Under the pieces are notes generated by a model, which worked only from the letters and a program-made list of their open reading frames with translations, was not told the origin of the DNA and ran no database searches. A stretch of DNA of 64,000 bases from positions 62,001 through 126,000 of the forward strand of contig KV454011.1 of NCBI GenBank assembly GCA_001661245.1, in the 5' to 3' direction. Below, piece after piece: positions 2,527 through 64,000 of the stretch. The position numbers and the translations under genes are program-made. This DNA is from Pachysolen tannophilus NRRL Y-2460. Lineage: Eukaryota. The number at the start of each line of letters is the position of its first letter. Within the stretch, counting starts at the first letter, position 1.

Positions 2527-4383
2527 ATGACTCAACATACAGAAAAGGAAGCAGGTTATGAGTATCAAACAATTAAAATTCCTATTGGAAAACAACTGAT
2601 TTATGAATCTCAACATAGGAAACCAAAGACAACAAGATTATCTGTGGAAGGTCCTGTTGAATGTCCCTTGACAAGTTTTCAACTTTTAAATTCAGCCTTA
2701 TTTAATAAAGGATCTGCATTTACTTTAGAAGAAAGGGAACTGTTTGAATTAACAGGATTATTACCTTCAGGGGTTAATACTTTAGATGAACAAGTGGATA
2801 GAGCTTATAAACAATTGTGTTATTTGAAAACTCCATTGGCTAAAAATGATTTTTGTGTATCAATGAGAGTACAAAATAAAGTTTTATTTTATGAATTAGT
2901 TAGAAGACATATTAGAGAATTATTACCAATTATTTATACTCCAACAGAAGGTGATGCAATTGCTGCATATTCTCATAGATTTAGGAAACCAGAAGGTTGC
3001 TTTTTAGATATAACTGATTTTGATTCTGTAAGTAAAAGATTATCAAGATTTGGTGAAGATAAAGATATTGATTATATCGTTGTTAGTGATGGTGAAGGTA
3101 TATTAGGTATTGGTGATCAAGGTGTTGGTGGTGTTAGAATTGCTATTTCTAAATTAGCATTGATGACTTTATGTGGTGGTATACATCCAGGAAGAGTTAT
3201 TCCTGTTTGTATTGATTCAGGTACAAATAATGAAAAATTATTAAATGATGATTTATATATGGGTAATAAATTCCCAAGAGTTAGAGGTGAAAAATATGAT
3301 AAATTTGTTGAAAAATTCATCTTGACAGTAAAAGAAAGATATCCAAATGCAATCGTTCATTTTGAAGATTTTGGTGTCACCACAGCAAGACCAATCTTAT
3401 TTAAATATAGAAATGTTATTCCTTGTTTTAATGATGATATTCAAGGAACAGGAGCTGTTGTAATGGCTTCAATGACTGCTGCATTAAAAATTTGTAAAAA
3501 AAATTTATTAGATTCTCAAATTGTTATTTATGGTGCTGGATCTGCAGGTTTAGGTATTGCTGATCAAATTGTAAATCATATGGTTGCTCATGGTTCAACA
3601 GAAGAAAATGCTAGATCAAGAATTCATTGTCTTGACCGTTATGGTTTAATCACAGAATCAATGGGTGATGTATGTTATCCAGATCAATTGAAATATGCTG
3701 ATAAAGATGAAGATTGGGAAGGTGTTAATAAGAAATCCTTATTAGAAGTTATTAGAAAAATTAAACCAACTTCATTAATTGGTTGCTCTACACAAGCAGG
3801 TGCTTTCACAGAAGAAATTGTTAAAGAAATGTACAAACATAACCCAAGACCAATCATTTTCCCATTATCTAATCCAACAAGATTACATGAAGCTATACCA
3901 GAAGATGTTATGGCTTGGACCGATAATAATGCTTTAATAGCTACAGGATCTCCTTTTAAACCTGTTGATGGATTTGTTATTTCAGAAAATAATAATTGTT
4001 TTACATTCCCAGGTATTGGATTGGGTGCACTTTTAGCTCGTGCTTCTTTAATTTCAGATACAATGATTTCAGCTGGTGTTGATCAATTGGCTTCATTATC
4101 TCCTGCTTTAACTACTGGAGATTCAAAAGCTGGATTATTACCAAGATTAGAAGATATTAACGAAGTATCTGCACAAGTTGCTACAGCAATTATTCTTCAA
4201 GCAATCAATGAAAATGTTGCTAGAGTTGAAAAAGAACCTTCACCTTCTGGTCATGGATATGTTAAAGTCCCAAGAGATTTCGAAGGTTGTCTTAAATGGG
4301 TTAAATCACAAATGTGGAAACCACTATACAGACCATTGATTAAAGTTCAACACGTTCCAGAAATTCATACTCATCAATGTTAA
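2527..4383 (+). CDS. MAE1: Malic enzyme
   Basis: Motifs LPIIYTPTEGDAI, DGEGILGIGDQG, FNDDIQGTG, GAGSAG and PLSNPT; colinear with yeast Mae1. Confidence 0.96.
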   Translation: MTQHTEKEAGYEYQTIKIPIGKQLIYESQHRKPKTTRLSVEGPVECPLTSFQLLNSALFNKGSAFTLEERELFELTGLLPSGVNTLDEQVDRAYKQLCYLKTPLAKNDFCVSMRVQNKVLFYELVRRHIRELLPIIYTPTEGDAIAAYSHRFRKPEGCFLDITDFDSVSKRLSRFGEDKDIDYIVVSDGEGILGIGDQGVGGVRIAISKLALMTLCGGIHPGRVIPVCIDSGTNNEKLLNDDLYMGNKFPRVRGEKYDKFVEKFILTVKERYPNAIVHFEDFGVTTARPILFKYRNVIPCFNDDIQGTGAVVMASMTAALKICKKNLLDSQIVIYGAGSAGLGIADQIVNHMVAHGSTEENARSRIHCLDRYGLITESMGDVCYPDQLKYADKDEDWEGVNKKSLLEVIRKIKPTSLIGCSTQAGAFTEEIVKEMYKHNPRPIIFPLSNPTRLHEAIPEDVMAWTDNNALIATGSPFKPVDGFVISENNNCFTFPGIGLGALLARASLISDTMISAGVDQLASLSPALTTGDSKAGLLPRLEDINEVSAQVATAIILQAINENVARVEKEPSPSGHGYVKVPRDFEGCLKWVKSQMWKPLYRPLIKVQHVPEIHTHQC

Positions 4384-4582
4384 ATCTTTTCAAAATTTTT
4401 AAACCCTCTCTTACATTACTTTTCCATTTCTTTAAATTTTTACCTAATATTCTTTTATTCTTTTTTTTTTAAAAAAAAAAACTTACTTATCAAACTGGAT
4501 TTTTGCAACTTTATAATATAATATTCATTGAGCGCATCATATAAAAATTTAAATATCATGTAATCGTATCTATCTATACATT

Positions 4583-5485
4583 TTAAAAAGGTGGAAATTT
4601 TTCAAACATTTCAGTTACACTTTTCTCAAGTTTTGACTTATCGATTAAAATCAAACTTAATTTAGGCTCAATACCATAATCATTAAATACTCTTCTAGAA
4701 TCTGATTCCCGTGTCTTGTGAGTGTATGGGAAATATGAATGATAATTTGAATTATCTTCCAAGATTGAATCTTCATAGTGGAAATAATCCATTTCTGTTT
4801 GGTTCGAAACATCTGATGATTTCTTGGATCTCTTTGATTTACGCCCATTATCATTTTCATCTTCTTCATCTTCAGGATTTTGAGGTGAAACCAACTGATA
4901 AACTTTTGTTATTACTAAAAAATATTTTAAATCTTTATAATCGTCTTCCTTAGCAGACTCTTCCAATAACATTTTATACATTGGAGGTACAGTTTCAACA
5001 GGCATATTAATTAAACGTTCACTTATAATTAACCCTGTTTGAATTTTCTTTGAATCATTTGATAATAATAATTTCCTCAACATCAAGTTAAACTCTGTCT
5101 TCTTAGAAGTCTTAGATATAACATAATCAACAATTTTCTTTAAAAACTTGTTATCATTCTTGTTACCTTCTGAAAGCTCTTTGGTTAAATTTAAAACAGA
5201 TAATACCGAAAATGGATCACTTTGCTCACCATCTGTCTTCACAGTTGTACCAATATTATTATTTAATATCAAATCTGTTAAACTAGACAAGTCAAATTCT
5301 TTGGAATCTTCTCCAAATAATTGTCTGAGCAAGTTCTTAATTGAATGGAAATCAATATCTGGATTCAAATTGAAATAGTCAAAATCAACATTAACAATTT
5401 CTTCATTTTCTTCCTCTTCATCTGAAGAACTAACATCAATATCTGAATCTGAAGATACTTGTTCTTCTACCTTTCTCTTAGCCAT
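4583..5485 (-). CDS. BCP1: Bcp1 (BCCIP family), 60S biogenesis / Mss4 export factor
   Basis: VNVDFDYF...[34 protein letters not shown]. Confidence 0.93.
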
Positions 5486-5574
5486 GATCTTAAAGCTTTA
5501 ATTTAGTTCCAATAGTATATAATTATTGTTATTACTGTTATGAAGTTTTGAAACTTTTGAAACTTTTCACTTTT

Positions 5575-5610
5575 AAAAATTTTTTTTTCTCTTTTTTAAT
5601 ATGAGATGAG
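5575..5610. promoter_or_regulatory. RRPE-like (AAAAATTTTT) and PAC-like (GAGATGAG) motifs in the BCP1/CDC40 divergent promoter
   Basis: GAGATGAG at 5603-5610 and an A5T5 tract at 5575-5584, upstream of a ribosome-biogenesis gene. Confidence 0.45.
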
Positions 5611-5681: not shown

Positions 5682-7328
5682 ATGTCTTTGATAAAAGGGT
5701 ATGGTTCAAGTGAGAGTGAAGATGAAGGTGATAAGATTTTAAATGGGCAGTTAGCTATTAATCCTAAACCAAACGTGGATGTACGAAAGTTGGGCAGTAA
5801 TGGCGATAACGATAAAGGTAATAATGACAACGGTGCCAAAAAGACACTTTCAGGGTATGTTCAAAAGGAATCATTCGATAATGCTACTTTCCAGATCCAA
5901 AAGAGAACTTTTGATATGCTAGGGTATACAGAGGATCCCACCATAGCTTCTGATGATGATGGGGTGAAAATTGTAGGTGATTTATCGACTGCTACAAAAT
6001 TTAACAATCAAGATATAACAATGTTGACCAATTCTAAAAAAGACTCTAAAATTTTGAAAAAAAGAAGAAAGAATAAAGGAACTTTAGGTATTGTTGGTGG
6101 GAAAAACTCATACAAAGGACCATGGGCAGAGTATAATAGTAATAGCAGCAGTGGTGGTGGTAGTGGTAGTAGTGGCGATAGTGACGAAGGTAATGATAGC
6201 GAAACAACGCCTATAACGCCGGATAGAGCTACTTTATTATTACCGGAGAACGATCAATACGCCTTGCGTAAGCAGGATGAAGAAACTACAGAGTTCTTTG
6301 GACCAGGAGGTGAGCTTGATTATCAAGGTAGAACTTATATGCATATTCCACCAACTTTATCCAAAGAAGAGCCTGGTTCAAAAGAATGCTTTGTTCCAAA
6401 GAAATTAATACATACTTGGGATGGGCATCATGGTGGTACCAATAAGTTACAATTTTTTCCAAGGTCTGGACATTTATTGCTTTCTTGTGGTAATGATAGT
6501 AAAATATTATTATACGATGCCTTCCGTGATAGTAATAATAAAGGATATCCTCTATTGAGAGGATTTTTTGGACATTCCAAACTGGTTAAAGATATTAATT
6601 TCAATTATAGTGGTGATAAATTCTTAAGTTGCTCATATGACAGGACTATTAAGCAGTGGGATACAGAAACAGGGAAATGCATATCCAGAATTAAATTGAA
6701 TTCTTTACCCAATGTCATCAAGTATAATCCACTTGAGTCTTTGCAAACTGAATTCTTGGTTGGTTTAACAAACAAGAAAATTGAGCAATATGATTTGAGA
6801 TCGAACGAAGTGATTCAAACTTATGACCACCATTTGGGTGCCATCAACTCTATTACTTTTCTTGAGGATAATAGAAGGTTTTTAACTTCCTCGGACGATA
6901 AAAGTTTAAAAGTTTGGAATTGGCAAATAAATATTCCAATTAAGCTGATTGCTCATCCTGCTCAACACTCGATGCCATGTGTTAAATTACATCCTTCCAG
7001 AAAATATTTTGCTGCTCAAAGCATGGATAATACTATATTAACATTTAATGCTTACAAACATAAAAATTACAAGAAAAACAAAAAGAAACTCTTTATAGGT
7101 CATAATTCTGCCGGATATGGTATTGATTTGAATTTCTCATATGATGGGAAGATATTGATGAGTGGAGATAATAATGGGTATGCTTTCTTTTGGGATTGGA
7201 AAACTTGTAAATTGATCAAGAAGTTGAAAATTGACGATAAATTGATAAATTGTATTGAACCTAATCCTCAAGAAGTTAGTAGAGTTGCAATAAGCGGTTT
7301 AAGTGGTAAAATTTATTATTACGAGTGA
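5682..7328 (+). CDS. CDC40: WD40 pre-mRNA splicing factor Prp17/Cdc40
   Basis: ELDYQGRTYMH, FVPKKLIHTWDGH, QTYDHHLGAIN, QHSMP, AQSMDN. The first ATG is at 5682 (the track starts at a GTG). Confidence 0.93.
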   Translation: MSLIKGYGSSESEDEGDKILNGQLAINPKPNVDVRKLGSNGDNDKGNNDNGAKKTLSGYVQKESFDNATFQIQKRTFDMLGYTEDPTIASDDDGVKIVGDLSTATKFNNQDITMLTNSKKDSKILKKRRKNKGTLGIVGGKNSYKGPWAEYNSNSSSGGGSGSSGDSDEGNDSETTPITPDRATLLLPENDQYALRKQDEETTEFFGPGGELDYQGRTYMHIPPTLSKEEPGSKECFVPKKLIHTWDGHHGGTNKLQFFPRSGHLLLSCGNDSKILLYDAFRDSNNKGYPLLRGFFGHSKLVKDINFNYSGDKFLSCSYDRTIKQWDTETGKCISRIKLNSLPNVIKYNPLESLQTEFLVGLTNKKIEQYDLRSNEVIQTYDHHLGAINSITFLEDNRRFLTSSDDKSLKVWNWQINIPIKLIAHPAQHSMPCVKLHPSRKYFAAQSMDNTILTFNAYKHKNYKKNKKKLFIGHNSAGYGIDLNFSYDGKILMSGDNNGYAFFWDWKTCKLIKKLKIDDKLINCIEPNPQEVSRVAISGLSGKIYYYE

Positions 7329-7496: not shown

Positions 7497-8771
7497 TTAA
7501 GCGTAGAATGATACAGATTTATTCTTTCTTGCTTGGACCTCTCCAATTGCTTCTACGAAATCTTCGTGTTTTATTGTGTTTTGACCATTTCTCAATGCAA
7601 TCATTCCAGCTTCAACTGTAACTGCTTTCAATTGAGCACCATTAAATTCATCAGTAGATCTTGCTAATTCTTGCCAATTTATTGCCTTTTCAGTATTCAT
7701 TTTTCTTGAATGAATTTGTAAAATTTGAGCTCTACCTTCTTCTGTCGGTAATGGGAATTCAATTTTTCTATCTAATCTTCCAGATCTTAATAATGCAGGA
7801 TCCAAAACATCAACTCTATTAGTAGCTGCCAAGACTTTAACTCTATCATCCGATCCAAAACCATCCAATTGATTTAACAATTCCAACATTGTTCTTTGAA
7901 CTTCTCTGTCTCCACTTTTATTTGAATCAAATCTTTTTGTTCCAATGGCGTCTAATTCATCTATAAAGATAATTGTTGGAGCCTTTTCCTTTGCTAATGC
8001 AAATGCATCTCTAACTAATTTTGCACCATCACCAATAAACATCTGCACCAATTGAGGAGCTGCTAATTTTAAGAAAGTTGCATTTGTTTGAGCAGCACAA
8101 GCTCTTGCTAATAAAGTTTTACCAGTACCCGGAGGTCCATACATCAAAGCACCTTTTGGTGGTTTAATACCTAAAGTAGTAAATTTATCAGCTTGTTGCA
8201 TTGGCAATACTACTGCTTCAACTAATTCCTCAATTTGTTTATCCAATCCACCAATATCAGAATATTCTTCAGTAGGTTTTTCATCAACTTCCATCAGTTT
8301 AACACGGGAATCATATTCTGCAGGTAATTTATCCAATACTAAATAACTATCTTTATTAACACCAACCAAATCATTTGGTCTCAAGTCATTAGGGTCAACT
8401 AATCCAACCAATGGTAAGAAAACAGTCTGTCTAGTTGAAGTCTTTACAACAGCAGATTTCCCAACTCTTGTTGAATCTAAATCAACATTTGCACCTTCTT
8501 CAGTTTGTTCAGCTTCTAAATCCAATAATTCTACTACATTAGCAACTAAATATGGTAACTGCTTATTATTCTCAATCTTATCAGTATTATCCTTAATCCG
8601 CTCTTGCATCACCGACCTCTCATGATTTAATCTTTGCAACTCAGATCTAAACAACTTGATTTCATTATCCAATAATTTTGTTCTATTAATAATATCATTA
8701 GTTGAAGAATTCAAAATTTCTTGATCAATTTCTGGTTCTGGCTCATTTTCCAATTCTTCTAACGTTGACAT
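7497..8771 (-). CDS. RPT5: 26S proteasome AAA-ATPase Rpt5
   Basis: MSTLEELE start, [32 protein letters not shown]-terminal SVSFYA (HbYX motif). ATG at 8771. Confidence 0.97.
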
Positions 8772-12799: not shown

Positions 12800-15664
12800 C
12801 TAATTGATAATTGCCTTTTTCTTTTTGATTTTCTTTTTCTTTTCTTTGATATCCGGGGTTCCATTTGCGTTATCTCTTCCATTAGTTCCTTCGGCTGTAT
12901 TCTCCTTGTTAACTTTGACCGGCAGTTTAATGGTATTAGCTTCTATATCTTCATCCTTCTTTTTCTTCTTTTTCGTTTTTGAAGTCGTCTTCTTAGGTTT
13001 CTTATTTTCCAAATAGGACGTTGCCATTTCCTTACGTAATTGTTCGACTTCATATTCTCCATTAAAATCATTTTTCAAAGATGGGAGACCCATTTCGTCA
13101 TTAGCAGTTACTTCGGCAGAAGAAGATATATCAAAGTTATCCAAGTTTGATGAATCAATTCTAAATTTTGAGGATTTCGATGAAAAATGTTGTTTCCTAA
13201 TAGTAGAATTATTTTTTTTATTAATGTTTTTATTTGATTCATTATCTGGAACATCTTCTTCTTGTAAAATCAAAACCTTTTCCTTCTTCACATGCTTCTT
13301 TTTCGGTTTAACCTTTTTCTTGCCTTTTGGATTTTGAGTTTCCTGCTCATCTAACGAAATCAATTGTGAAGTTTCTTTGGTACTTATCTTACCAGCGGAA
13401 ACTGAATCCATAGATATATAGTACGGATCATCCTTCAATCTGAGTTCTCTTTCCAGGTTCTTTCTTGCAATTTCGACTTCATCATCAAACGGTTCACCAG
13501 TTTCGTTATCGTGATCGTTTATATTAGATGAATCACTCATATTTTCTCCGCTATCAATTTCATTTTCGTCATCATAATAATAATTATAATCACGATCATC
13601 GTTTTCAAATCTACTCAACTTAATCAAATCACCGAATTTCTCATCATTAATCACTTCATTAAAATCTATTACATCAGGTAAGCTAATACGTAGTTGCAAA
13701 CCAAGAGCAATAGGTTTCAATTCGTAAGAGTTGTAAAACTGCGGTAAACCTTTTGTTAAAAAAAGAGGAGGTGCAATACGTATGCTGGATTCATCTGCAG
13801 AAGACAAAGAAGTAATCAATTTTTGTAAATTGTTTTCCAATGATTCCAATAAAATTTTCAACAACTCTAAATTGTTAATTGCTCTTTCTTGGATTTCAAA
13901 TGATAGAGAGTATTGAAAACTTTCAAAAAAATTAATAAAATTTTTTGTCAACAATATTAGTTCTTCGTAATGATTTGTATCCCAATCTTCAAAATAGTTA
14001 TCAGCATTTATGAATTTAACAAAAATTTTAAACAACGATTCAATGTAAATAGGAAGAATATTATCTGAATTTTCCTGAAATTTCAACCAATTCAACATGT
14101 TATCACTAATTAGATAATTAATGATTGAAAAAGATTCTTCTTTATCCTGTTTATTCAAATAATCAACAAAATATTCCCCAACGCACCACATACAGTTAGT
14201 TAACCAGTTTCTCTTCACCAAATATTCATCTTTAATCAACTCTATACAAATTTGAATCAATTCATGCCGAAGGCTAGGTATTTTTAAACCAATATCGACA
14301 AAATATTGTGTAATTTCAAATACTAGCCCACCATCATTCGAGTTAAGTTTTATTAAATCTTTCAAAGTGATCAAAAACCAATGGAAATTAGGTATTAATG
14401 CATAATTATTTGAAGAACAAACACTTAAGATTTTTTTCGTTATTTGAGTTCTATAACTAACAGGCAAAGTTTCAGTTTCTTCCAGTAATTGAATCAATAA
14501 AAGAGATACAATTTGGACCACATTATCTTCATCTATCAAGCCATCTACTAAATCCAATGATTTTGAACGTATGGTTAAATCTTGATCTTTTAAACAATCC
14601 ATTATTAATGACTGATGTTCACGAATCAAACTAGGTTGAATATTAATGATTTTAATAAATGCTAATATAGAAACATATTTCAAATTCAAATCGTTTGTGG
14701 TTAAAAATTGTAATAGTTCATCAATCATAATTTTGGAAATCTTAGAATCCTGAGGTGATAACATGTTTCCAGTCAATATGCAATTAATACATTCATAAAT
14801 TAAAGAAGACAGCTTTGTCTTTGACATTATTTCCAAAATCGATGGTAATAATTTTTTTTTCAACCTAGGTTCTATTATAGATAACGATGAAAACAATTTT
14901 AGCAATCTAATTATCATCCAATTATTGTTCGAATTAACCAATAAATCAAATAAACGGGGCAGAAGTTCGATATAGTTCTTTGGATTTTTCTTTGCTAATT
15001 CACAAATTACATTGACAGTGGCACTAACAACGGATACATCTTCATCATCCAACCTATCAATCAATCTATTATAATTGAGTCTTAAAGCATTTGGATATTT
15101 TAAAAAAATCTTGAAACTTGCTAAAATCAGTTTCTTCCTAATAAAAGGTTTTGTATGTGTTAACATCTTAATCAAGTCATCTATAACATCTTGAGCCAAT
15201 TCTTTAGTAACAATTGAAGATAAACAACTAATAGCTAAACCAACTTCTAAATAATTTGAAGAGTTGAGATCTTTTTTCAATAAATTTGTCATTAACATTA
15301 ATACATCATCATTGTTATCTCTTGTTAATATTTGAATTGCTGCTAGATATCCAATTCTTTTATGTTGAAACTTATTCGATGACATAACTTCTAATATTTG
15401 GAAAGAACAAAATGATAAGTCAAATCCATACATTTCAAGATAAGTCAACTTCAAAATACTTGTAGATTTCAACTCTGGATCATTTGACTTCAATTCTTTT
15501 CTACATTCTTGAATAGAATCATTGAAAAATTGTGAAAGTTTCTGTTTATCATTATTATTTGATCTTATACCTTTAATTAAGTCAGATAAAGATTTTTCAA
15601 AACTAATCCCAAAAGGCCTTAGTCTTGACCTAAACTGATCAGCAGTAACATCCACCAATGACAT
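12800..15664 (-). CDS. APL5: AP-3 complex delta adaptin
   Basis: RLRPFGISFEKSLSDLIKGIR, KLTYLEMYGFD, NNNWMIIRLLKLFSSL, RLKDDPYY. ATG at 15664. Confidence 0.95.
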   Translation of the reverse strand: MSLVDVTADQFRSRLRPFGISFEKSLSDLIKGIRSNNNDKQKLSQFFNDSIQECRKELKSNDPELKSTSILKLTYLEMYGFDLSFCSFQILEVMSSNKFQHKRIGYLAAIQILTRDNNDDVLMLMTNLLKKDLNSSNYLEVGLAISCLSSIVTKELAQDVIDDLIKMLTHTKPFIRKKLILASFKIFLKYPNALRLNYNRLIDRLDDEDVSVVSATVNVICELAKKNPKNYIELLPRLFDLLVNSNNNWMIIRLLKLFSSLSIIEPRLKKKLLPSILEIMSKTKLSSLIYECINCILTGNMLSPQDSKISKIMIDELLQFLTTNDLNLKYVSILAFIKIINIQPSLIREHQSLIMDCLKDQDLTIRSKSLDLVDGLIDEDNVVQIVSLLLIQLLEETETLPVSYRTQITKKILSVCSSNNYALIPNFHWFLITLKDLIKLNSNDGGLVFEITQYFVDIGLKIPSLRHELIQICIELIKDEYLVKRNWLTNCMWCVGEYFVDYLNKQDKEESFSIINYLISDNMLNWLKFQENSDNILPIYIESLFKIFVKFINADNYFEDWDTNHYEELILLTKNFINFFESFQYSLSFEIQERAINNLELLKILLESLENNLQKLITSLSSADESSIRIAPPLFLTKGLPQFYNSYELKPIALGLQLRISLPDVIDFNEVINDEKFGDLIKLSRFENDDRDYNYYYDDENEIDSGENMSDSSNINDHDNETGEPFDDEVEIARKNLERELRLKDDPYYISMDSVSAGKISTKETSQLISLDEQETQNPKGKKKVKPKKKHVKKEKVLILQEEDVPDNESNKNINKKNNSTIRKQHFSSKSSKFRIDSSNLDNFDISSSAEVTANDEMGLPSLKNDFNGEYEVEQLRKEMATSYLENKKPKKTTSKTKKKKKKDEDIEANTIKLPVKVNKENTAEGTNGRDNANGTPDIKEKKKKIKKKKAIIN

Positions 15665-17530: not shown

Positions 17531-18586
17531 TTATATATTTATTGGTTTTTGTAAAAGATGGCCCATTCTTTCGATTTTAGTTCTTAAATAACCATCAATT
17601 TCTTTAGAATGTACTCCTTCTTCTTTATTTTGCCACAGTAATGGGATCATTGGAACTCTTTGTGTAACATGTATTAATCTATTTTTACCTTCAACAGCTA
17701 CTATTTTATCTGGGTTATTTGTTAATAATTTAATATTAATTAAATTTAAATCTAATAATATAGCTGTTGCCATTCCAAATGAACGACTATCAGCAGGATG
17801 CCTTAACATTAAATTCAGTTGTACAGTATCAGCACCTAAATCTTGTAAATTATAAGCTTTTAATTTTTCTCCTAAACCAATGCCACGACCTTCTTGTCTT
17901 AGGTAAACAATACATCCACGTCCTTCTTTACCCATTAATCTTCCTGCTTCATCAAATTGTTCACCACAATCACAACGTGCAGACCATGCAGTTTCTCCAG
18001 TATAACATTCTGAATGAATTCTTACTAATGTTGATATATCAATTGTTTGTTGATCAATTATTATATTACCATTTTCATCAAATTCCAATTTTTTACCTGA
18101 AACTTCATCAATATCAGAAAGTTTCCTTCCTGGATGTAATTTCCCCACATAAGCTCCTCTTGTCATTCTATCTGATTGAGATTCATTAGGCCTTTTTTTA
18201 AACAAAGTTTTAGAGTAAATATCTTCTCCAAATACAATTGCTAAATGTTCTTTATGATCTTCACTATTAGCATATAAATGTAAAAAAATTTCTGGACCTT
18301 TTGTTGTAGGAATTCTCAGTCTTGCAACACATTCCACTAAAGGTAAAGTCTCAGGTAAAAGTTGTCTCTTATGATCATTTAATAATGATTCTGATTCCCC
18401 TATAGGTATTGCAAGTGGCGTCGAAACAAATTTCGAAGGTGATCCCTTTGGTGATATTATTGGCAAATTATCAAAAACATTCGAAGCTTTATTAGTTTCT
18501 CCTTCAATTTTTTTAGATACCTTAGATGATGATGTTACGGTTATATCGATTGGTGTTGGTTCTAATATGTTTCCGTTAGTCATCAT
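17531..18586 (-). CDS. RIB1: GTP cyclohydrolase II (riboflavin synthesis)
   Basis: [42 protein letters not shown]. Confidence 0.97.
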
Positions 18587-19293: not shown

Positions 19294-19324
<31 letters not shown>

Positions 19325-19325
19325 T

Positions 19326-19665: not shown

Positions 19666-19774
19666 TAAAGTAAAGTAAAAAGAAAACACTCATTATCATC
19701 ATCAATTTTTTTTTTTTTTTTTTTTGCCTTTTTTTCCAATTTTTTCCAAAATTTTCTTATTTTACTTGGTTTGT

Positions 19775-46409: not shown

Positions 46410-47681
46410 ATGCCAATTGATTTGGGACTACAGAGGGTTACAAGGCTCTTGTCATTGTTAGGAAATCCACATTTCCGTTGGAAGTCGATTCATATTGCAG
46501 GTACTAATGGTAAAGGTTCTATATGTGCATATTTAAGTTCTATATTAACTCAATCTAAAATTAAGAATGGGAAATTCACTTCACCTCACTTGATTAGAAG
46601 ATCAGATTGTATTACTATAAATGATGAATATGTTTCAAATGCGCTTTTTGAAGAAGTTGAGTCTAAGATTAATAAATTGAATCTGATGAATGAGTTAAAA
46701 TGTACAGAATTTGAGATTTTAACCTGTTGTGCTTTTGAAATTTTTAAAATATTACAAATTGAAGTTGCTGTAATAGAAGTTGGTCTAGGAGGTAGATTAG
46801 ATGCAACAAATGTTTTACCTCCTTACCCAATTCGAGACGATTATAATGGAGGTGTAATTGCTACTGGAATTGCAAAAATTGGTTTAGATCATGAAAATAT
46901 ATTGGGTTCAACTTTAAGAGAAATAGCTACTGAAAAAGCAGGTATAATTAAAGAAAATATACCATGTATAGTGGATGGGACAAATGATAATGATTCATTA
47001 CAAGTCTTCAAAGAAATTTCTGATTTAAAACATTCAAAATTATATGTTATGAATGAAAACGATAATGATTTACCTTTTAATCTGAAAAGTTTACATTCAC
47101 CTTTAAGAGGTTCTTATCAATTATCTAATTTATTAGTTTCTTTGAAAATAATAGAATTGATTTCAAAAATTTTCAATATAACACAAGAATCTGTTAAAAA
47201 AGGAGTATTAGAAGTGAAATGGCCTGGAAGATTACAAGAATTAAAACTTCAATATTGTAAAACAAAACCTTCAGTACGAGTTTTACTTGATGGTGCACAT
47301 AATAAATCACTGACTATTGAATTATCCAAATATTTACTGTCAAATGTTAGAAATCAAAATGAATCCGATAAAGGATTGATTTTTATAATGGCAATAACAA
47401 AAGGTAAAAAAATTGACCTGTTATTAGCTCCTCTAATTAAACCTCAAGATACAGTGATATTAACAACTTTCGGTAAAGTTGATGGTATGCCATGGATCTC
47501 TTGTTGTGATCCAGAATCTTTAAAAAATGAATATTTGAAATATACTAAAAATGTGGAAATTCAAAAAAATCAAGTAGATGCAATCAAATTTGCAATTGAA
47601 AAACCTCAGAAAAATATTGTTATATGTGGAAGTTTATATTTGGTAGGTGATTACTTGAGAATGCATGAGAATAATATATGA
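46410..47681 (+). CDS. FOL3: Dihydrofolate synthetase (FolC family)
   Basis: MPIDLGLQRV, HIAGTNGKGS, EVGLGGRLDATN, WPGRLQ, DGAHN, CGSLYL. Confidence 0.9.
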   Translation: MPIDLGLQRVTRLLSLLGNPHFRWKSIHIAGTNGKGSICAYLSSILTQSKIKNGKFTSPHLIRRSDCITINDEYVSNALFEEVESKINKLNLMNELKCTEFEILTCCAFEIFKILQIEVAVIEVGLGGRLDATNVLPPYPIRDDYNGGVIATGIAKIGLDHENILGSTLREIATEKAGIIKENIPCIVDGTNDNDSLQVFKEISDLKHSKLYVMNENDNDLPFNLKSLHSPLRGSYQLSNLLVSLKIIELISKIFNITQESVKKGVLEVKWPGRLQELKLQYCKTKPSVRVLLDGAHNKSLTIELSKYLLSNVRNQNESDKGLIFIMAITKGKKIDLLLAPLIKPQDTVILTTFGKVDGMPWISCCDPESLKNEYLKYTKNVEIQKNQVDAIKFAIEKPQKNIVICGSLYLVGDYLRMHENNI

Positions 47682-51907: not shown

Positions 51908-52553
51908 NNNNNNNNNNNNNNNNNNNNNNNNNNNNNNNNNNNNNNNNNNNNNNNNNNNNNNNNNNNNNNNNNNNNNNNNNNNNNNNNNNNNNNNNNNNNN
52001 NNNNNNNNNNNNNNNNNNNNNNNNNNNNNNNNNNNNNNNNNNATTAGATTTAATTTAAATTTTTTTTCAATCCGTTTGAACTTGAATTTAAATTTGAATT
52101 TGAAGGTGGTTGCAACGGTGCCTTTTCTCCAGTACTATGATAATTCAGAGTTTTGGTGATCGGAGGCGGAGGAGGTAGCTGCTTATCCAGATTATATGAA
52201 AGCCTATTCATGAACAACAATAGCACACTTCTATAAAGATTGATCTAGAAGATAATCTAATTTAAAAATATATATTTTTATACATATCTTTTGTAAAAGG
52301 GAAGATAAAAAAAAAAAGAAAAAAAAGCGCAGTTTTTAAATTTTTTTTATTTATTTTCATTTTCTCATTTTACATACATACATACACATATAGAGTGAAA
52401 ACAGGAAACTTTCAAACTGAAACTTGAAAACATGAAAACATGAAATTAAACCAATACATAAAACTTTTTTACCAGATCAAAGTCAAGTCAAAATTTAGTT
52501 TAATTCAATCTTATTCTTACAATAATAACTCGTTTTAAAAACCTTTTAAGGTT

Positions 52554-52663: not shown

Positions 52664-52687
52664 TTAGCTGTGCTGCTGGCCATTACC

Positions 52688-52723
<36 letters not shown>

Positions 52724-55269: not shown

Positions 55270-57657
55270 ATGTCTAAGATCAATGTATTAGTGGTTGGTA
55301 ATGGTGGTCGTGAACATGCTTTAGTTCATAGTTTATACACTTCTCCATTAGTTAATCATATTTATGTAGCTCCAGGTAATGGAGGTACACAAAATTCTTA
55401 TTCTAATGTGAGTAATGTTCCAATTGGTTATTCTCCAAAAGATTTTCCTCTGTTGGTACTGTTTGCAAAAGAAAAAGATATTCAATTAGTTATTCCAGGT
55501 CCTGAACAACCATTAGTTGATGGTATATCAACTTTTTTCAAAAAAAATGGTATTTCAGTATTTGGTCCATCTCTGAAAGCTTCATTAATGGAAGGTTCAA
55601 AAACTTTTTCTAAAGATTTTATGGCAAGACATTCAATTCCAACTGCAGATTTTCAAAATTTTAATAATTATGAATTAGCTAAAAATTATTTATTAAAAAA
55701 TTCTGAAAAAAATTTTGTTATTAAAGCTTCAGGTATAGCTGCTGGTAAAGGTGTTTTAATTCCAACAAATACTCAAGAACTGTTGGATGCTGTAAAACAA
55801 ATCATGGTGGATAAAGAATTTGGTCATGCTGGTGATGAAGTGGTAATTGAAGAATTCTTACAAGGTGATGAATTATCAATCTTGTGTCTTTGTGATGGTT
55901 ATACTATAATCGATCTTCCTCCTGCTCAAGATCACAAAAGAATCGGTGATGGTGATCAAGGTCTCAACACTGGAGGTATGGGTGCTTATGCCCCAGCCCC
56001 ATTAGCAACACCCGCTTTATTACTGAAAATTAGATCAACTATCTTAAAACCAACAATAGATGGAATGAGAAAAGATGGTTACCCAATGATTGGTTGTCTC
56101 TTTGTTGGAATCATGGTATCACCTTCAGGTGAACCAAAAGTATTGGAATATAACGTTAGATTTGGTGATCCAGAAACTCAAACTATATTACCATTGATAA
56201 AATCAGATTTGTTAGAAATCCTTTATGCTGCAGCAGAAGGAAGATTAGATAGTGTTGAAGTTAATATTGAAAAACTGTTCTCAACAACAGTGGTAATGGC
56301 TGCAGGTGGTTACCCAGAATCTTACACAAAAAATGATGAAATTACAATATCAAAACCGTTACCTGAAAATACTTTTATCTTTCATGCTGGTACTTCAATT
56401 TTACCAAATTCAACAAAATTGGTAACTTCAGGTGGAAGAGTCATTGCTTCAACTGCAATCGCTTCAACTTTAGAAGATTCTGTTAAAATGGCTTATGTTG
56501 GTGTAGATCATGTTTCTTTTAAAAACAAATATAACAGAACAGATATAGCTTATAGAGCTTTTAAACAACAACAATCTCAACAAGAAAGACAACTGATTAC
56601 TTATGCAGATTCTGGTGTTTCTGTTGATAATGGTAATCAATTAGTAGAAAATATTAAAAAATTGGTTAAATCTACAGCAAGACCAGGAGCAGATTCTGAA
56701 ATTGGTGGTTTTGGTGGTTTATTTGATTTATCAAAAGCAGGTTATACAAATATTAATGAAACTCTCTTGGTTGGAGCTACAGATGGTGTTGGAACTAAAT
56801 TAAGAATTGCTCAAATCATGAATATTCATAATTCAGTAGGAATAGATCTTGTGGCAATGAATGTAAATGATTTAGTTGTTCAAGGTGCAGAACCATTAAT
56901 GTTTTTAGATTATTTTGCAACAGGTCGTTTGGATATTAAAGTTGCTGAACAATTTGTTTACGGTGTAGCAAAAGGTTGTAAAATTGCTGGATGTGCTTTA
57001 GTTGGTGGTGAAACTTCTGAAATGCCTGGAATGTATTCAGAGGGACATTATGATACAAATGGAACTGCAGTTGGTGCTGTTGTTAAAAATGAAATGTTAC
57101 CAAAACTTGACGAAATGGCAGTAGGAGATATATTGATAGGTCTTGGTTCTGATGGTGTACATTCAAATGGATTTTCTTTAGTTAGAAAAATTATTGAAAA
57201 AAATGGACTTTCTTATCATGATCCATTACCATACGATAATAGTTTAACCATTGGTGAGGCAGTATTGGTTCCAACAAGAATATATGTAAAACAACTCATG
57301 CCTTCAATTAAAAAAAAGTTATTACTTGGATTAGCACATATAACTGGTGGAGGTTTAGTGGAAAATATTCCAAGAGCTTTACCATCTAATTTACAAGCTA
57401 AAGTTGACATGTCATCATGGGAAATCCCAGAAATTTTTAAATGGTTTGGAACAATAGGTAATGTTCCAGTAGAAGATATTTTGAAAACTTTCAATATGGG
57501 TATTGGTATGGTACTGATTGTTAAACCAGAGAATGCAGATGAAGTTATTAAGAATTTAGTTCTGGAAGGTGAAAGAGTATTCAAGATTGGTGAATTGGTT
57601 GAAAGGAAGAATGGTCAAGCTGGTTGTATTGTAGAAAATGCTGCTGGTCTTTATTGA
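55270..57657 (+). CDS. ADE5,7: Bifunctional GAR synthetase / AIR synthetase
   Basis: GNGGREHAL, NTGGMGAY and EYNVRFGDPE (PurD), then TDGVGTKL, GGETSEMPG and HITGGG (PurM). Confidence 0.98.
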   Translation: MSKINVLVVGNGGREHALVHSLYTSPLVNHIYVAPGNGGTQNSYSNVSNVPIGYSPKDFPLLVLFAKEKDIQLVIPGPEQPLVDGISTFFKKNGISVFGPSLKASLMEGSKTFSKDFMARHSIPTADFQNFNNYELAKNYLLKNSEKNFVIKASGIAAGKGVLIPTNTQELLDAVKQIMVDKEFGHAGDEVVIEEFLQGDELSILCLCDGYTIIDLPPAQDHKRIGDGDQGLNTGGMGAYAPAPLATPALLLKIRSTILKPTIDGMRKDGYPMIGCLFVGIMVSPSGEPKVLEYNVRFGDPETQTILPLIKSDLLEILYAAAEGRLDSVEVNIEKLFSTTVVMAAGGYPESYTKNDEITISKPLPENTFIFHAGTSILPNSTKLVTSGGRVIASTAIASTLEDSVKMAYVGVDHVSFKNKYNRTDIAYRAFKQQQSQQERQLITYADSGVSVDNGNQLVENIKKLVKSTARPGADSEIGGFGGLFDLSKAGYTNINETLLVGATDGVGTKLRIAQIMNIHNSVGIDLVAMNVNDLVVQGAEPLMFLDYFATGRLDIKVAEQFVYGVAKGCKIAGCALVGGETSEMPGMYSEGHYDTNGTAVGAVVKNEMLPKLDEMAVGDILIGLGSDGVHSNGFSLVRKIIEKNGLSYHDPLPYDNSLTIGEAVLVPTRIYVKQLMPSIKKKLLLGLAHITGGGLVENIPRALPSNLQAKVDMSSWEIPEIFKWFGTIGNVPVEDILKTFNMGIGMVLIVKPENADEVIKNLVLEGERVFKIGELVERKNGQAGCIVENAAGLY

Positions 57658-57717: not shown

Positions 57718-58872
57718 TTATTCTGCAGCAAATGGGTTTTCCTTTAATGCTAAATTAACTGTATTTTCAACTGCCTGGTAACTTGCCAATGTAATTGTTC
57801 CACTTAAACTTACTTTAAATAATCTAGGTAACCAACCTGACCATAAAGTAGCTATACCTTCATTTACAAAAATTTTAAATAAACAAGTAAAAGAATCTTT
57901 ATAATGTTTTGAATAATCTTTTGCTTGTATTCTTGTCTTTACTACATCAATTGGTTGAGTTATAGCAACAACAGCAGCAGAAGATAAAAATCCCAGAAAT
58001 AAAGAATATACCAGATCCAAATCGTGTAAAGGATCAATAATTGTTTTCAATCCATTATAAGTTGAAAACCAAACCATTGAATTCATAATTTGTCTTAATA
58101 CCGTTATCGAAGAACCTTGAGTAAATCCTCTAAGACCTCTTGTGTTATAAATTTCTCTACAAACTTTAAGAAATAAATACTGTGGTGGGGATTTATTTGA
58201 TCTTAAATCTGTAGAAGGTGGAGGTAATGTACCTTTAGCTTTCATCACCAGATCACTAATCTCTTTACTCACATCAGAAGTAGTAGTAGAAGAAGAATTT
58301 TTCACTGACAGAAATTTGGCTTTGACTCCCGAATTTTTTGGAGTTGATTTTTTCAAAAATTCTCCATCATCTGTAAAACCTTTTGATCTATTTTGTAAAA
58401 TTAAAAAATTCTGTATAGATGTTGTCTTTATATTTTCAAATGGTATTACAAATAACGATTCAATAAACCCAGTCATCAACCCTGCCACCACTACACGAGG
58501 AGCAGTTGTACTCCCGCTATCATTTGCCATAAATTTTGAAGTTGAATTAAAAATGAAAAATCTCGATGATGCCTTTAATGCATTACCTATAGCTAACCCA
58601 TTACAACCAATGAAAAAATCTCGACCATGGGACTCCAGAATTTGAAATATCAGCCCCAGATTCAGTTTCTGTAATTGACGGCAAGTCTTAATAAATTCAA
58701 ACGGATAAGTTACCAATGTTTGAACTATTGCAGCTGAACTACCAGCAATAACCGCCGTTACCAAATTCGGCTCAACATTCGCAGATGTAGTACCTTTATT
58801 CCCCATATAAAGCCCCCTCCGAGAATGTCTCTGCCTCGAGGGGAAAGGTAACTCTTCTCTATCAACAGACAT
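57718..58872 (-). CDS. Mitochondrial carrier family protein (YFR045W/Mrx20- or citrate-carrier-like)
   Basis: Three PX[DE]XXK signatures: PFEFIKT, PFENIKT, PIDVVKTR. First ATG at 58872. Confidence 0.85.
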   Translation of the reverse strand: MSVDREELPFPSRQRHSRRGLYMGNKGTTSANVEPNLVTAVIAGSSAAIVQTLVTYPFEFIKTCRQLQKLNLGLIFQILESHGRDFFIGCNGLAIGNALKASSRFFIFNSTSKFMANDSGSTTAPRVVVAGLMTGFIESLFVIPFENIKTTSIQNFLILQNRSKGFTDDGEFLKKSTPKNSGVKAKFLSVKNSSSTTTSDVSKEISDLVMKAKGTLPPPSTDLRSNKSPPQYLFLKVCREIYNTRGLRGFTQGSSITVLRQIMNSMVWFSTYNGLKTIIDPLHDLDLVYSLFLGFLSSAAVVAITQPIDVVKTRIQAKDYSKHYKDSFTCLFKIFVNEGIATLWSGWLPRLFKVSLSGTITLASYQAVENTVNLALKENPFAAE

Positions 58873-62608: not shown

Positions 62609-62633
62609 CTTCCAGTTTCCAACTTCCTACTAT

Positions 62634-62670
62634 GTGTTCCGAAAACGGCCAAATTGTGGTTTCGGAACAC
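62634..62670. repeat. Perfect 11-bp inverted repeat with a 15-nt spacer
   Basis: GTGTTCCGAAA (62634-62644) and TTTCGGAACAC (62660-62670). Confidence 0.85.
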
Positions 62671-63039
62671 TACTGTTTTGTGTGGATTTTTTTTTTTAAG
62701 AAAAAAAAATTGTTTTCAAAAAAATTTATTGGAATTTTGAAAAATTTTGAGTGTAAAACAAGTGCAAAACAAGAAATTATTTAATATTATATATATATTT
62801 GATCTCATTGAAATAAATTAATTGGAAATTTATTTGGAGTTTAAACTCGATTTAAGCAATTTAATGGATTAAATTGTTTCCAGATAACTCATTCATTTTG
62901 GTTGTTTGTGCAAAATAGTTGTAAATTAGTTTGTTTGTTTGTTTGTTTTTTTTTTAAAAAAAAGTAAATAAATAAAATAAAATAAAATAAAAATAAAATA
63001 AAATAAATAGAAAAGTTCAAATTTTAAAATTTGGTTTCC

Positions 63040-64000
63040 ATGTCGCAACAAGATATAGCTAATTTACTAGATCAATCCATCAATTCATCAACAGCAAAGA
63101 TTGCTGAGAATGGGTTGCGGCAGCTTGAAGGCCAGCCCGGTTTTGCACTCAATTTGTTGGAAGTTGTTGCATCTTCTTCATTACCAATAACAACAAGATT
63201 AGCTGGATCACTTTTTTTCAAAAATTTTATTAAGAGGAAATTTATTGATGAAGATGGTAATTATAAGATTCCTTTAGGAGATGTTGACTTGTTGAAAAAA
63301 AATATTATATCATTAATGATACTGTTACCAAATAATTTACAAGTACAAGTTGGTGAAGCTGTATCAATTATTGCAGATTCTGATTTTCCAGATAGATGGC
63401 CAGATTTATTAGATGATTTGGTAGGAAAATTATCTACCGAGGATATGGTAACTAATAAGGGAGTCTTAACAGTGGCGCATTCAATTTTTAAAAGATGGAG
63501 ACCTTTATTTGGATCGGATGAATTATTTTCAGAAATTAAATTGGTATTAGATAAATTTGCTCAACCTTTTTTAAAATTATTACTTCAAGTTGACCTGTTA
63601 ATTGATAATAATCAACAAAATAAAAAACAATTACAAGAATTATTTGATGTTTTATTATTGTTAATTAAGATTTATTATGATTTAAATTGTCAAGATATTC
63701 CTGAATTTTTTGAAGATAATTTAAAAATTGGAATGTCTATAATGCATAAATATTTAAGTTATTCCAATACATTATTAGAAGATATAAATGATGAACAAGA
63801 AATTGATATCAATACAAAAGTTAAAACTTCAATATGTGAATTGGTTCAACTTTATACTAGAAGATATGAAGATGTATTTGGAGATTTAATTCAACAATTT
63901 ATTCAACCAATTTGGGATCTTTTAACAAATATTGGACCTCAACCAAAATATGATATCTTGGTATCAAAATCACTTTCATTTTTAACTTCTGTTGCCAAAA
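63040..64000 (+). CDS. CSE1: Importin-alpha export receptor Cse1 (exportin-2); 5' part only
   Basis: MSQQDIANLLDQS...TRLAGSLFFKNFIKRK...LPNNLQVQVGEAVSIIADSDFPDRWP...AHSIFKRWRPLF...QDIPEFFEDN; open to the window end, so absent from the ORF track. Confidence 0.95.
   Translation, partial: MSQQDIANLLDQSINSSTAKIAENGLRQLEGQPGFALNLLEVVASSSLPITTRLAGSLFFKNFIKRKFIDEDGNYKIPLGDVDLLKKNIISLMILLPNNLQVQVGEAVSIIADSDFPDRWPDLLDDLVGKLSTEDMVTNKGVLTVAHSIFKRWRPLFGSDELFSEIKLVLDKFAQPFLKLLLQVDLLIDNNQQNKKQLQELFDVLLLLIKIYYDLNCQDIPEFFEDNLKIGMSIMHKYLSYSNTLLEDINDEQEIDINTKVKTSICELVQLYTRRYEDVFGDLIQQFIQPIWDLLTNIGPQPKYDILVSKSLSFLTSVAK

What the first reader, a model, noticed from the sequence alone, without database searches (positions are those of the whole stretch)
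2740..63324. Non-standard nuclear genetic code: CUG is read as alanine
Seen in sequence: 'L' residues in the track that disrupt conserved motifs are CTG codons at positions where homologues (recalled) have Ala. Examples: RPT5 8295-8297 DSRVK[CTG]MEVDE (RVKAMEVDE); CIT1 19838-19840 G[CTG]PIERPKS (GAPIERPKS); RIB1 17816-17818 DTVQ[CTG]N (DTVQAN); MAE1 2740-2742 EERE[CTG]F (EEREAF); APL5 15128-15130 RKK[CTG]I (RKKAI) and 14810-14812; APL2 45157-45159 PAVVL[CTG] (PAVVLA); ADE5,7 56593-56595 [CTG]ITYADSG (AITYADSG); CDC40 6582-6584 GHSK[CTG]V (GHSKAV); FOL3 47310-47312 DGAHNKS[CTG]. Less clean sites: ADE5,7 57514-57516 GMV[CTG]IV (Leu in S. cerevisiae) and CSE1 63322-63324 (Ser). Established: CUG-Ala decoding (translation table 26) is known in Pachysolen tannophilus and relatives (Nakazawaea, Peterozyma) and is distinct from CUG-Ser in Candida. 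Inference: this genome belongs to that clade or has an equivalent reassignment. It is a known phenomenon if the source is one of those yeasts, and new if not.
Basis: partly seen in the sequence, partly recalled or inferred. Interest (0 to 1): 0.85.

Follow-up and report, generated by a model that had tools for sequence, protein, structure and literature searches.

The report
Known yeast code: CUG means alanine

Summary
I masked CTG as X and compared with homologues.

**CTG does not behave like a leucine codon.**
- Leu is the majority residue at 3 of 26 usable CTG columns, against 178 of 235 for the other Leu codons (p=1.5e-10).
- Ala is the best-fitting residue: 46.8 nats better than Leu and 15.1 better than Ser. 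Ala came top in 4237 of 5000 bootstraps.
- Five near-invariant Ala columns carry CTG, in RPT5, RIB1, APL5 (two) and ADE5,7.
- The fit is weak, because CTG sits at the most variable columns. Three to four CTG lie at Leu-type columns.

Of the 10 "clean" examples, 4 were confirmed as Ala, 2 partly, and 4 were wrong (Ser, Gly/Ser, Gly, Asn).

**The code is already annotated.** The public copies of four window proteins carry Ala at 31 of 31 CTG codons.

**The placement fits the CUG-Ala clade.** Phylogeny and contig size fit Alaninales, probably Pachysolen tannophilus, where tRNA-Ala(CAG) and mass spectrometry established this code in 2016 (PMC4937558).

The tRNA could not be tested here.

Verdict: real, already known, low interest.

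The parts
8295..8297 (-). CTG codon 159 of RPT5 (DSRVK[CTG]MEVDE)
   Evidence: Ala in 5 of 5 aligned PDB chains of Rpt5/PSMC3
17816..17818 (-). CTG codon 257 of RIB1 (DTVQ[CTG]N)
   Evidence: Ala in 3 of 3 GTP cyclohydrolase II chains, which I take to be bacterial (recalled)
15128..15130 (-). CTG codon 179 of APL5 (IRKK[CTG]IL)
   Evidence: Ala in yeast and human AP-3 delta
14810..14812 (-). CTG codon 285 of APL5 (SKTK[CTG]SSLIYEC)
   Evidence: Ala in yeast and human AP-3 delta
55780..55782 (+). CTG codon 171 of ADE5,7 (TNTQE[CTG]LDAVK)
   Evidence: Ala in 119 of 119 homologues
55573..55575 (+). CTG codon 102 of ADE5,7
   Evidence: Ala in 68 of 119 homologues
45109..45111 (-). CTG codon 283 of APL2
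   Evidence: Ala in 53 of 119 homologues; Ala is the commonest residue
19838..19840 (-). CTG codon 373 of the last CIT1 exon (G[CTG]PIERPKS)
   Evidence: Ala in 2 citrate synthase chains that I take to be fungal, Phe in 3 that I take to be animal
6582..6584 (+). CTG codon 301 of CDC40/PRP17 (GHSK[CTG]V)
   Evidence: Ala in the chains I take to be human, Pro in those I take to be S. pombe and S. cerevisiae Prp17
45157..45159 (-). CTG codon 267 of APL2 (PAVVL[CTG])
   Evidence: Ser 82, Thr 26, Leu 6, Ala 4 of 119; the nearest relative P0392 has Ala
56593..56595 (+). CTG codon 442 of ADE5,7 ([CTG]ITYADSG)
   Evidence: Gly 57, Ser 51, Thr 6, Ala 3 of 119: a small residue, but Ala is not the consensus
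57514..57516 (+). CTG codon 749 of ADE5,7 (GMV[CTG]IV)
   Evidence: Val 50, Leu 38, Ala 30 of 119; Ala in the 3 nearest relatives
47310..47312 (+). CTG codon 301 of the FOL3-like gene (DGAHNKS[CTG])
   Evidence: Gly in both distinct homologues aligned
2740..2742 (+). CTG codon 72 of MAE1 (EERE[CTG]F)
   Evidence: Asn in the only chain aligned; fungal homologues were not examined
63322..63324 (+). CTG codon 95 of CSE1
   Evidence: Ser in the only homologue aligned, which I take to be S. cerevisiae Cse1
44938..44940 (-). CTG codon 340 of APL2 (YNDP[CTG]YLKLE), at a Leu-conserved column
   Evidence: Leu 116, Ile 3 of 119: the strongest counter-example. Under the CUG-Ala code it is a Leu-to-Ala replacement.
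42667..42669 (-). CTG codon 277 of the CMR1-like WD40 gene, at a Leu-rich column
   Evidence: Leu 76 of 119
35727..35729 (-). CTG codon 1016 of FAB1 (VNPK[CTG]GT)
   Evidence: Leu in the single PIKfyve chain aligned, which I take to be human
57994..57996 (-). CTG codon 293 of the mitochondrial carrier gene
   Evidence: Leu 13, Ile 6 of 29 homologues
2596..63597 (.). Span holding all 108 in-frame CTG codons of the 28 long ORFs
   Evidence: Codon table and positions. CTG is 32.8% of the CTN box, against 4.4-11.7% for G-ending codons in seven other four-codon boxes.

Best explanation
The window is nuclear DNA of a budding yeast of the CUG-Ala clade (order Alaninales), most likely Pachysolen tannophilus. 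It reads CUG as alanine (NCBI translation table 26).

The mechanism is taken from the literature and was not shown here. The ancestral tRNA-Leu(CAG) was lost. An alanine tRNA whose anticodon mutated to CAG captured the codon. It keeps the G3:U70 pair and A73, and alanyl-tRNA synthetase does not read the anticodon.

Inferred from the code table: after the change, a single base change can reach CTG only from Leu, Val, Met, Pro, Gln or Arg codons, and never from an Ala codon. New CTG codons are therefore amino-acid replacements to Ala, and they survive mainly at tolerant sites. That would explain why CTG columns are the most variable of all codons. It would also explain why a few CTG sit at Leu-type columns.
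For: **Shown here**
1. All 52 other codon types with at least 5 columns were assigned their standard residue by the column test. CTG was assigned Ala (LL/site -0.22; Ser -0.81; Leu -2.02, seventh). Ala beats Leu by 46.8 nats and Ser by 15.1. In the bootstrap Ala was top 4237 of 5000 times, Ser 585 and Leu 28. This used 26 of 32 CTG columns from 4 gene families.
2. Leu is the majority residue at 3 of 26 CTG columns, against 178 of 235 for the other Leu codons (p=1.5e-10). Ala is the majority at 5 of 26, against 5 of 235 (p=0.0012).
3. Among near-invariant columns there are five with Ala: ADE5,7-171 (119 of 119), RPT5-159, RIB1-257, and APL5-179 and APL5-285. There is one with Leu (APL2-340) and one with Gly (FOL3-301).
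4. CTG makes up 32.8% of the CTN box in a 29.4% GC window. G-ending codons make up only 4.4-11.7% of the other four-codon boxes.
5. The database copies of the window's own proteins have Ala at 31 of 31 CTG codons.
6. In the ADE5,7 tree the window sits in a 100%-supported clade with the Pichiales, outside the Serinales.
7. The window's proteins lie on a contig of 2,514,465 bp. A table in PMC13232491 lists a P. tannophilus assembly with a longest scaffold of 2.51 Mb and under 2% N (passages).

**From papers**
- PMC4937558 (Results sections read): the tRNA(CAG) has Ala identity; there are 16,824 CUG codons in 5,288 genes; 97.2% of 907 fully supported CUG positions were Ala by LC-MS/MS.
- PMC5951914 (passages) and PMC11182611 (passages): the clade comprises Pachysolen, Nakazawaea and Peterozyma.
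Against: - **The Ala signal is weak for a sense codon.** The best LL/site is negative (-0.22, against +1.48 to +2.12 for GCN). Ala is the majority at only 5 of 26 CTG columns, against 89 of 134 for GCN (p=1.4e-5). Ser was top in 12% of bootstraps.
- **Some CTG lie at Leu-type columns:** APL2-340 (116 of 119 Leu), CMR1-277 (76 of 119), carrier-293 (13 of 29) and FAB1-1016 (one PIKfyve chain, which I take to be human). This is an excess over GCN codons (3 of 26 against 1 of 134, p=0.014).
- **Coverage is partial.** Only 44 of the 108 CTG codons were examined, 18 of them against just 1 to 5 PDB chains.
- **No direct evidence on decoding.** The window has no tRNA gene and no whole genome is held. 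The decoding tRNA and the peptides were not examined here.
- **The species name is indirect.** No named Alaninales sequence was in my comparison sets.
Confidence: 0.93

Rival explanations
1. CTG is read as serine, as in the Candida (table 12) or Ascoidea/Saccharomycopsis clades.
For: - Ser is the second-best residue (LL/site -0.81) and came top in 585 of 5000 bootstraps.
- Ser is the commonest residue at APL2-267 and APL2-287 and at CSE1-95.
- A 2014 study using the same kind of column evidence assigned Pachysolen CUG to Ser before the tRNA and MS data corrected it (PMC4986446, passages).
Against: - Ser is 15.1 nats worse than Ala.
- No CTG falls on any of the 34 columns with at least 80% Ser, while five CTG fall on near-invariant Ala columns.
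- The window is outside the Serinales clade, which has 100% support.
- The deposited proteins carry Ala.
Confidence: 0.03
2. CTG is decoded ambiguously: mostly as Ala, with a biologically relevant share of Leu. This would make the CTG codons at Leu-conserved columns tolerable.
For: There is an excess of Leu-majority columns at CTG relative to GCN codons (3 of 26 against 1 of 134, p=0.014). APL2-340 lies at a column that is Leu in 116 of 119 homologues. FAB1-1016 aligns to Leu in the one PIKfyve chain, which I take to be human.
Against: - The same excess is expected from single-base TTG/CTN-to-CTG mutations under a pure Ala code (inference from the code table).
- For P. tannophilus, 97.2% of 907 fully supported CUG positions were Ala. 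The rate of deviations was reported as similar to that at AUG (PMC4937558, Results).
- Sequence alone cannot show ambiguity.
Confidence: 0.03
3. The code is standard. CTG is Leu and merely happens to lie at variable positions in this AT-rich genome.
For: Three or four CTG codons lie at Leu-type columns.
Against: - Leu is the majority at 3 of 26 CTG columns, against 178 of 235 for the other Leu codons (p=1.5e-10).
- Leu is 46.8 nats worse than Ala and came top in 28 of 5000 bootstraps.
- Standard decoding would require Leu at five near-invariant Ala positions.
- CTG is far too frequent for a G-ending synonymous codon here.
Confidence: 0.01

Closest known systems
Pachysolen tannophilus nuclear code (NCBI translation table 26; CUG-Ala clade / order Alaninales: Pachysolen, Nakazawaea, Peterozyma)
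   Same: - CTG fits Ala best and not Leu.
- CTG codons are fairly frequent: 108 in about 27 real ORFs here. The paper reports 16,824 in 5,288 genes (PMC4937558).
- CTG codons avoid conserved Leu and Ser positions, as reported for Pachysolen (PMC4986446).
- The phylogenetic position next to the Pichiales matches (PMC5951914).
- The deposited proteins are already translated with Ala.
   Different: Nothing found here differs in kind. One CTG (APL2-340) lies at a column that is over 95% Leu. The 2014 survey of 26 cytoskeletal proteins found no such case in Pachysolen. The tRNA-Ala(CAG) itself was not seen, because the window holds no tRNA gene.
CUG-Ser code of the Candida/Debaryomyces clade (table 12, Serinales) and the CUG-Ser2 clade (Ascoidea, Saccharomycopsis)
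   Same: The same codon is reassigned, in a neighbouring yeast lineage. The same kind of evidence applies: unnamed homologues in my sets show Leu at conserved Ser columns when translated with the standard code (for example 8 such sites each in P0184 and P0191).
   Different: Here the fitted residue is Ala, not Ser, and the window is outside the Serinales. The capturing tRNA is an Ala tRNA, not a Ser tRNA (literature).

Membership tests
CUG-Ala nuclear code (table 26, Alaninales) | A tRNA with anticodon CAG that carries alanine identity elements (G3:U70, A73, short variable arm), and no Leu- or Ser-type tRNA(CAG) | not testable with these tools
   ARAGORN finds no tRNA gene in the window. No whole genome is held. 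The feature is described for P. tannophilus in PMC4937558.
CUG-Ala nuclear code (table 26, Alaninales) | In-frame CTG codons align with Ala, not Leu or Ser, at conserved columns of orthologue alignments | tested here: met
   Ala is the best residue, +46.8 nats over Leu and +15.1 over Ser, and top in 4237 of 5000 bootstraps. Five near-invariant Ala columns carry CTG. Caveat: the signal is weak, and 3 of 26 columns have a Leu majority.
CUG-Ala nuclear code (table 26, Alaninales) | Peptides show Ala at CUG positions | not testable with these tools
   Needs LC-MS/MS. Published for P. tannophilus: 97.2% of 907 positions (PMC4937558).
CUG-Ala nuclear code (table 26, Alaninales) | Phylogenetic membership of the clade Pachysolen/Nakazawaea/Peterozyma, sister to the Pichiales | tested here: inconclusive
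   In the ADE5,7 tree the window pairs with the unnamed P0006 (SH-aLRT 96), deep inside a 100%-supported clade with the Pichiales and apart from the Serinales. No named Alaninales sequence was available.
CUG-Ala nuclear code (table 26, Alaninales) | The public annotation of the same locus translates CTG as Ala | tested here: met
   P0001 9 of 9, P0121 8 of 8, P0241 7 of 7 and P0391 7 of 7 CTG codons are Ala.
CUG-Ser code (table 12) | CTG codons fall at conserved Ser columns, and the organism belongs to the Serinales or Ascoideales | tested here: not met
   No CTG falls on any of the 34 columns with at least 80% Ser. Ser is 15.1 nats worse than Ala. The window is outside the Serinales clade.
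Standard code (CUG-Leu) | CTG columns look like the columns of the other Leu codons | tested here: not met
   3 of 26 against 178 of 235 Leu-majority columns, p=1.5e-10.

The most novel reading that the evidence does not exclude
CUG in this yeast may not be purely alanine. The excess of CTG codons at Leu-conserved, buried-looking positions (APL2-340, CMR1-277, FAB1-1016, carrier-293) could reflect a low but functional level of Leu insertion, or site-specific tolerance. That would make this a second case of stochastic CUG decoding, beside Ascoidea asiatica.
Probability: 0.03. Interest if true: 0.5.

Novelty: already known. Interest (0 to 1): 0.1.

Why it matters
- **Annotation.** Anyone translating this DNA with the standard code would put Leu where the cell puts Ala, at about 7 codons per 1000 (108 sites in this window alone). 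The code must be set to table 26.
- **Biology.** It adds nothing new. The CUG-Ala reassignment, its tRNA and its proteomic proof were published in 2016, and the clade was named Alaninales after it.
- **Method.** Column-conservation evidence for this code is intrinsically weak, because CTG codons occupy the most variable columns. From few genes it can be confused with Ser, as happened in print in 2014.

Tried and rejected
- **tRNA search.** The window has no tRNA.
- **Earlier scan notes.** There were none for this genome.
- **Sequencing runs.** Seven runs were listed with coded organism names. Five hold the ADE5,7 stretch, and no RNA holder was listed. They were of no use for naming the organism or for the code, and I laid no reads.
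- **PDB pairwise alignments as a substitute for deep alignments.** They were informative at only about 18 sites, often with one or two organisms per site. FAB1 sites beyond codon 1030 and MAE1-24 were not aligned at all.
- **The mitochondrial carrier family.** It proved too divergent. Only 30 representatives had E<=1e-30 (29 besides the window's own protein), and its 7 usable CTG columns carry little signal.
- **Test of the nearest unnamed relatives.** I looked for the tell-tale 'Leu at conserved Ala' that would show they share the code. There was only one such site (P0392), so this is uninformative.
- **Literature search for the GC content of P. tannophilus.** I found none in the passages read, so GC content is not used as evidence for the species.
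- **The 'ORF' at 19301-19702.** Rejected as a gene, because it is mostly a run of N.

Full report
**What is in the window**

The 64-kb window has 29.4% G+C and 476 N. The N lie in three gaps at 19326-19665, 28351 and 51908-52042. It holds 28 ORFs of at least 100 codons, with almost no spurious ones. The 'ORF' at 19301-19702 is mostly gap.

Pfam gave at least one family for 23 of the 27 proteins scanned.
- malic enzyme, Rpt5-type AAA ATPase, AP-3 delta and AP-1/2 beta adaptins;
- TBP, GTP cyclohydrolase II, citrate synthase, Fab1-type PIP kinase;
- Dhh1-type DEAD helicase, GARS/AIRS (ADE5,7), APC10 and Cse1.

The FOL3-like protein had no Pfam hit at E<=1e-5. It matched folylpolyglutamate/dihydrofolate synthase chains in the PDB at 2.4e-49.

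There is no tRNA gene in the window. No whole genome is held for it.

**The observation**

In total there are 108 CTG in 15,588 ORF codons, or 6.9 per 1000.

Within the CTN box, CTG accounts for 32.8% (T 150, C 24, A 47, G 108). In the seven other four-codon boxes the G-ending codon accounts for only 4.4-11.7%. In this AT-rich genome CTG is therefore several-fold too common to be just another synonymous CTN codon. This hint is independent of any alignment.

**Design of the codon test**

I translated every query with CTG masked as X, so that the meaning under test could not influence the searches or the alignments. Four gene families gave deep alignments:

| Family | Homologues used | Source |
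|---|---|---|
| ADE5,7 | 119 of the 120 best listed; own copy P0001 left out | |
| CMR1-like WD40 gene | 119 of 120; own copy P0121 left out | |
| APL2 | 119 of 120; own copy P0391 left out | |
| Mitochondrial carrier | the 29 representatives with E<=1e-30 other than the window's own P0241; the 120 weaker ones listed were left out as probable paralogues | |

These genes hold 32 CTG codons. Six fall in columns that are gaps in more than half of the homologues and were dropped, leaving 26.

For each codon type I summed the log-odds of each amino acid over its columns against the background of all columns.

**Result of the codon test**

*Positive control.* All 52 other codon types with at least five columns were assigned their standard amino acid.

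*Log-odds.* CTG was assigned Ala.

| Residue | LL per site |
|---|---|
| Ala | -0.22 |
| Ser | -0.81 |
| Thr, Gln | -1.38 |
| Leu (seventh) | -2.02 |

In total Ala is 46.8 nats better than Leu and 15.1 nats better than Ser. Resampling the 26 sites put Ala on top in 4237 of 5000 replicates, Ser in 585 and Leu in 28.

*Majority residue*:
- Leu is commonest at 3 of 26 CTG columns, against 178 of 235 columns of the other Leu codons (Fisher p=1.5e-10).
- Ala is commonest at 5 of 26 CTG columns, against 5 of 235 for the other Leu codons (p=0.0012).
- For the GCN codons Ala is commonest at 89 of 134 (p=1.4e-5 against CTG).

CTG is therefore clearly not a leucine codon here, and Ala is its best meaning. 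It does not look like an old, settled Ala codon either. CTG columns have the highest mean entropy of any codon type, 2.41 bits against 0.5-2.15.

**Single sites**

The ten PDB searches added 18 readable sites, each with only one to five chains.

Ala in every chain aligned:
- RPT5-159: 5 of 5 chains, from three different proteasome sequences.
- RIB1-257: 3 of 3 chains, which I take to be bacterial enzymes.
- APL5-179 and APL5-285: yeast and human.

With ADE5,7-171 (Ala in 119 of 119), that makes five near-invariant Ala positions carrying CTG.

Ala in some chains only:
- CIT1-373: Ala in 2 chains I take to be fungal, Phe in 3 I take to be animal.
- CDC40-301: Ala in the two chains I take to be human, Pro in the two I take to be yeasts.
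- APL5-235: Ser in yeast, Ala in human.

- APL2-267 is Ser (82 of 119; Ala 4).
- ADE5,7-442 is Gly/Ser (57 and 51 of 119; Ala 3).
- FOL3-301 is Gly in both homologues aligned.
- MAE1-72 is Asn in the only chain aligned.

All of these are small or polar residues, and none is Leu.

**Results that go the other way**
- APL2-340 lies at a column with Leu in 116 and Ile in 3 of 119 homologues.
- CMR1-277 has Leu in 76 of 119.
- Carrier-293 has Leu in 13 of 29.
- FAB1-1016 aligns with Leu in the one PIKfyve chain, which I take to be human.

Leu-majority columns are more frequent at CTG than at GCN codons (3 of 26 against 1 of 134, p=0.014).

My reading is an inference from the code table. CTG is one base change away from four Leu codons (TTG, CTT, CTC, CTA) and from GTG, ATG, CCG, CAG and CGG. 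It is two changes from any Ala codon. After the reassignment, every new CTG therefore arises as a replacement to Ala, quite often from Leu, and persists where Ala is tolerated. This predicts both the high variability of CTG columns and a minority of Leu-type columns.

The alternative, some residual Leu decoding, cannot be excluded from sequence. For P. tannophilus, however, mass spectrometry found Ala at 97.2% of 907 fully supported CUG positions, with deviations no more frequent than at AUG (PMC4937558, Results read).

**Whose genome, and is the code already known for it?**
- **Database copies.** The protein database's own copies of four window proteins carry Ala at every CTG codon: 9 of 9, 8 of 8, 7 of 7 and 7 of 7. 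The deposited annotation therefore already uses the CUG-Ala table.
- **Contig length.** These proteins lie on a contig of 2,514,465 bp. A table in PMC13232491 lists a P. tannophilus assembly of 12.60 Mb whose longest scaffold is 2.51 Mb, with under 2% N (passages).
- **Nearest named relatives.** They are Ogataea, Kuraishia, Candida arabinofermentans and Brettanomyces, at 59-73% identity. No relative is closer than about 75%.
- **Tree.** A maximum-likelihood tree of ADE5,7 used 32 rows: the window, 23 named and 8 unnamed homologues that I picked out of the 119. It used LG+G4 with a quick search.
  - The window pairs with one unnamed sequence (SH-aLRT 96).
  - The pair sits deep in a 100%-supported clade with the Pichiales, separate from a 100%-supported Candida/Debaryomyces clade.
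  - That is the position the literature gives the Ala clade: 'a deep division within the Pichiaceae' (PMC5951914, passages), order Alaninales with Pachysolen, Nakazawaea and Peterozyma (PMC11182611, passages).
  - No named Alaninales sequence was in my sets, so the clade assignment is consistent with the data but not proven here.
- **CUG density.** It is of the published order: 16,824 CUG in 5,288 predicted proteins, against 108 in about 27 real ORFs here.

**Mechanism**

This part is from the literature and was not tested here. In P. tannophilus the CUG decoder is an alanine tRNA with a mutated anticodon. It keeps A73 and the G3:U70 pair within G1GGC4 and lacks the long variable arm of Leu and Ser tRNAs. 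The authors explain the change by loss of the ancestral tRNA-Leu(CAG), a decline of CUG codons, and then capture by a tRNA whose synthetase does not read the anticodon (PMC4937558: abstract, Results and one Discussion section read).

**A caution on method**

The same group in 2014 assigned Pachysolen CUG to Ser, using column conservation in 26 cytoskeletal proteins. They noted that it had no CUG at conserved Leu positions (PMC4986446, passages). My 12% bootstrap share for Ser shows the same fragility. The window alone rejects Leu firmly. It prefers Ala over Ser only moderately, until the invariant-Ala sites, the phylogeny and the deposited translation are added.

As an internal check that the approach detects mistranslated codes, several unnamed homologues in my sets show Leu at conserved Ser columns. 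P0184 and P0191 have 8 such sites each. This is the signature of CUG-Ser yeasts translated with the standard code.

**Verdict**

The phenomenon is the published CUG-Ala code in what is most likely Pachysolen tannophilus itself. It is already known and already annotated, and of low interest beyond correct translation.

Supplementary files of the papers were not opened. They may hold the tRNA sequence and per-site CUG tables that would bear on the Leu-column excess.

Noticed in passing
window 19326-19665, 28351, 51908-52042: There are three runs of N (340, 1 and 135 bases), that is, scaffold gaps. The 133-codon 'ORF' at 19301-19702 is almost wholly the first gap and is not a gene.
   Followed up: yes
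window 20957-21500, minus strand: The citrate synthase ORF (19775-20956) is only the last exon. Upstream lie two short coding pieces separated by two intron-like stretches, with GTAAGT at 21445 and 21242 and TACTAAC at 21350 and 21023.
   Followed up: partly
window 57718-58872, minus strand: The database's copy of the mitochondrial carrier (P0241, 323 aa) starts at Met23 of the ORF. It also lacks ORF residues about 163-201, an in-frame 117-base 'intron' in the deposited gene model. One CTG (codon 188) lies inside the removed part. I saw no canonical yeast intron signals there.
   Followed up: partly
window 60122-60175, plus strand (SMI1/KNR4-like gene): Six CTG codons are clustered within 18 codons of a His/Gln/Ala-rich low-complexity tract (codons 242, 250, 254, 256, 257, 259). 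Under the CUG-Ala code they make the tract markedly Ala-rich.
   Followed up: no
homologue sets (e.g. P0184, P0191, P0118, P0240): Unnamed public proteins carry Leu at columns that are at least 80% Ser (up to 8 per protein). This suggests CUG-Ser yeasts translated with the standard code in public collections.
   Followed up: partly
window 46410-47681, plus strand: The FOL3-like protein has no Pfam-A hit at E<=1e-5. It nevertheless aligns over 412 residues with a folylpolyglutamate/dihydrofolate synthase chain at 2.4e-49.
   Followed up: no
many ORFs, e.g. 52664-54019 (DHH1 C-terminus), 43759-45957 (APL2 C-terminus), 23123-26314: Long poly-Asn and Asn/Ser/Gln-rich tracts occur in many proteins, as expected for a 29% GC genome (translations).
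   Followed up: no
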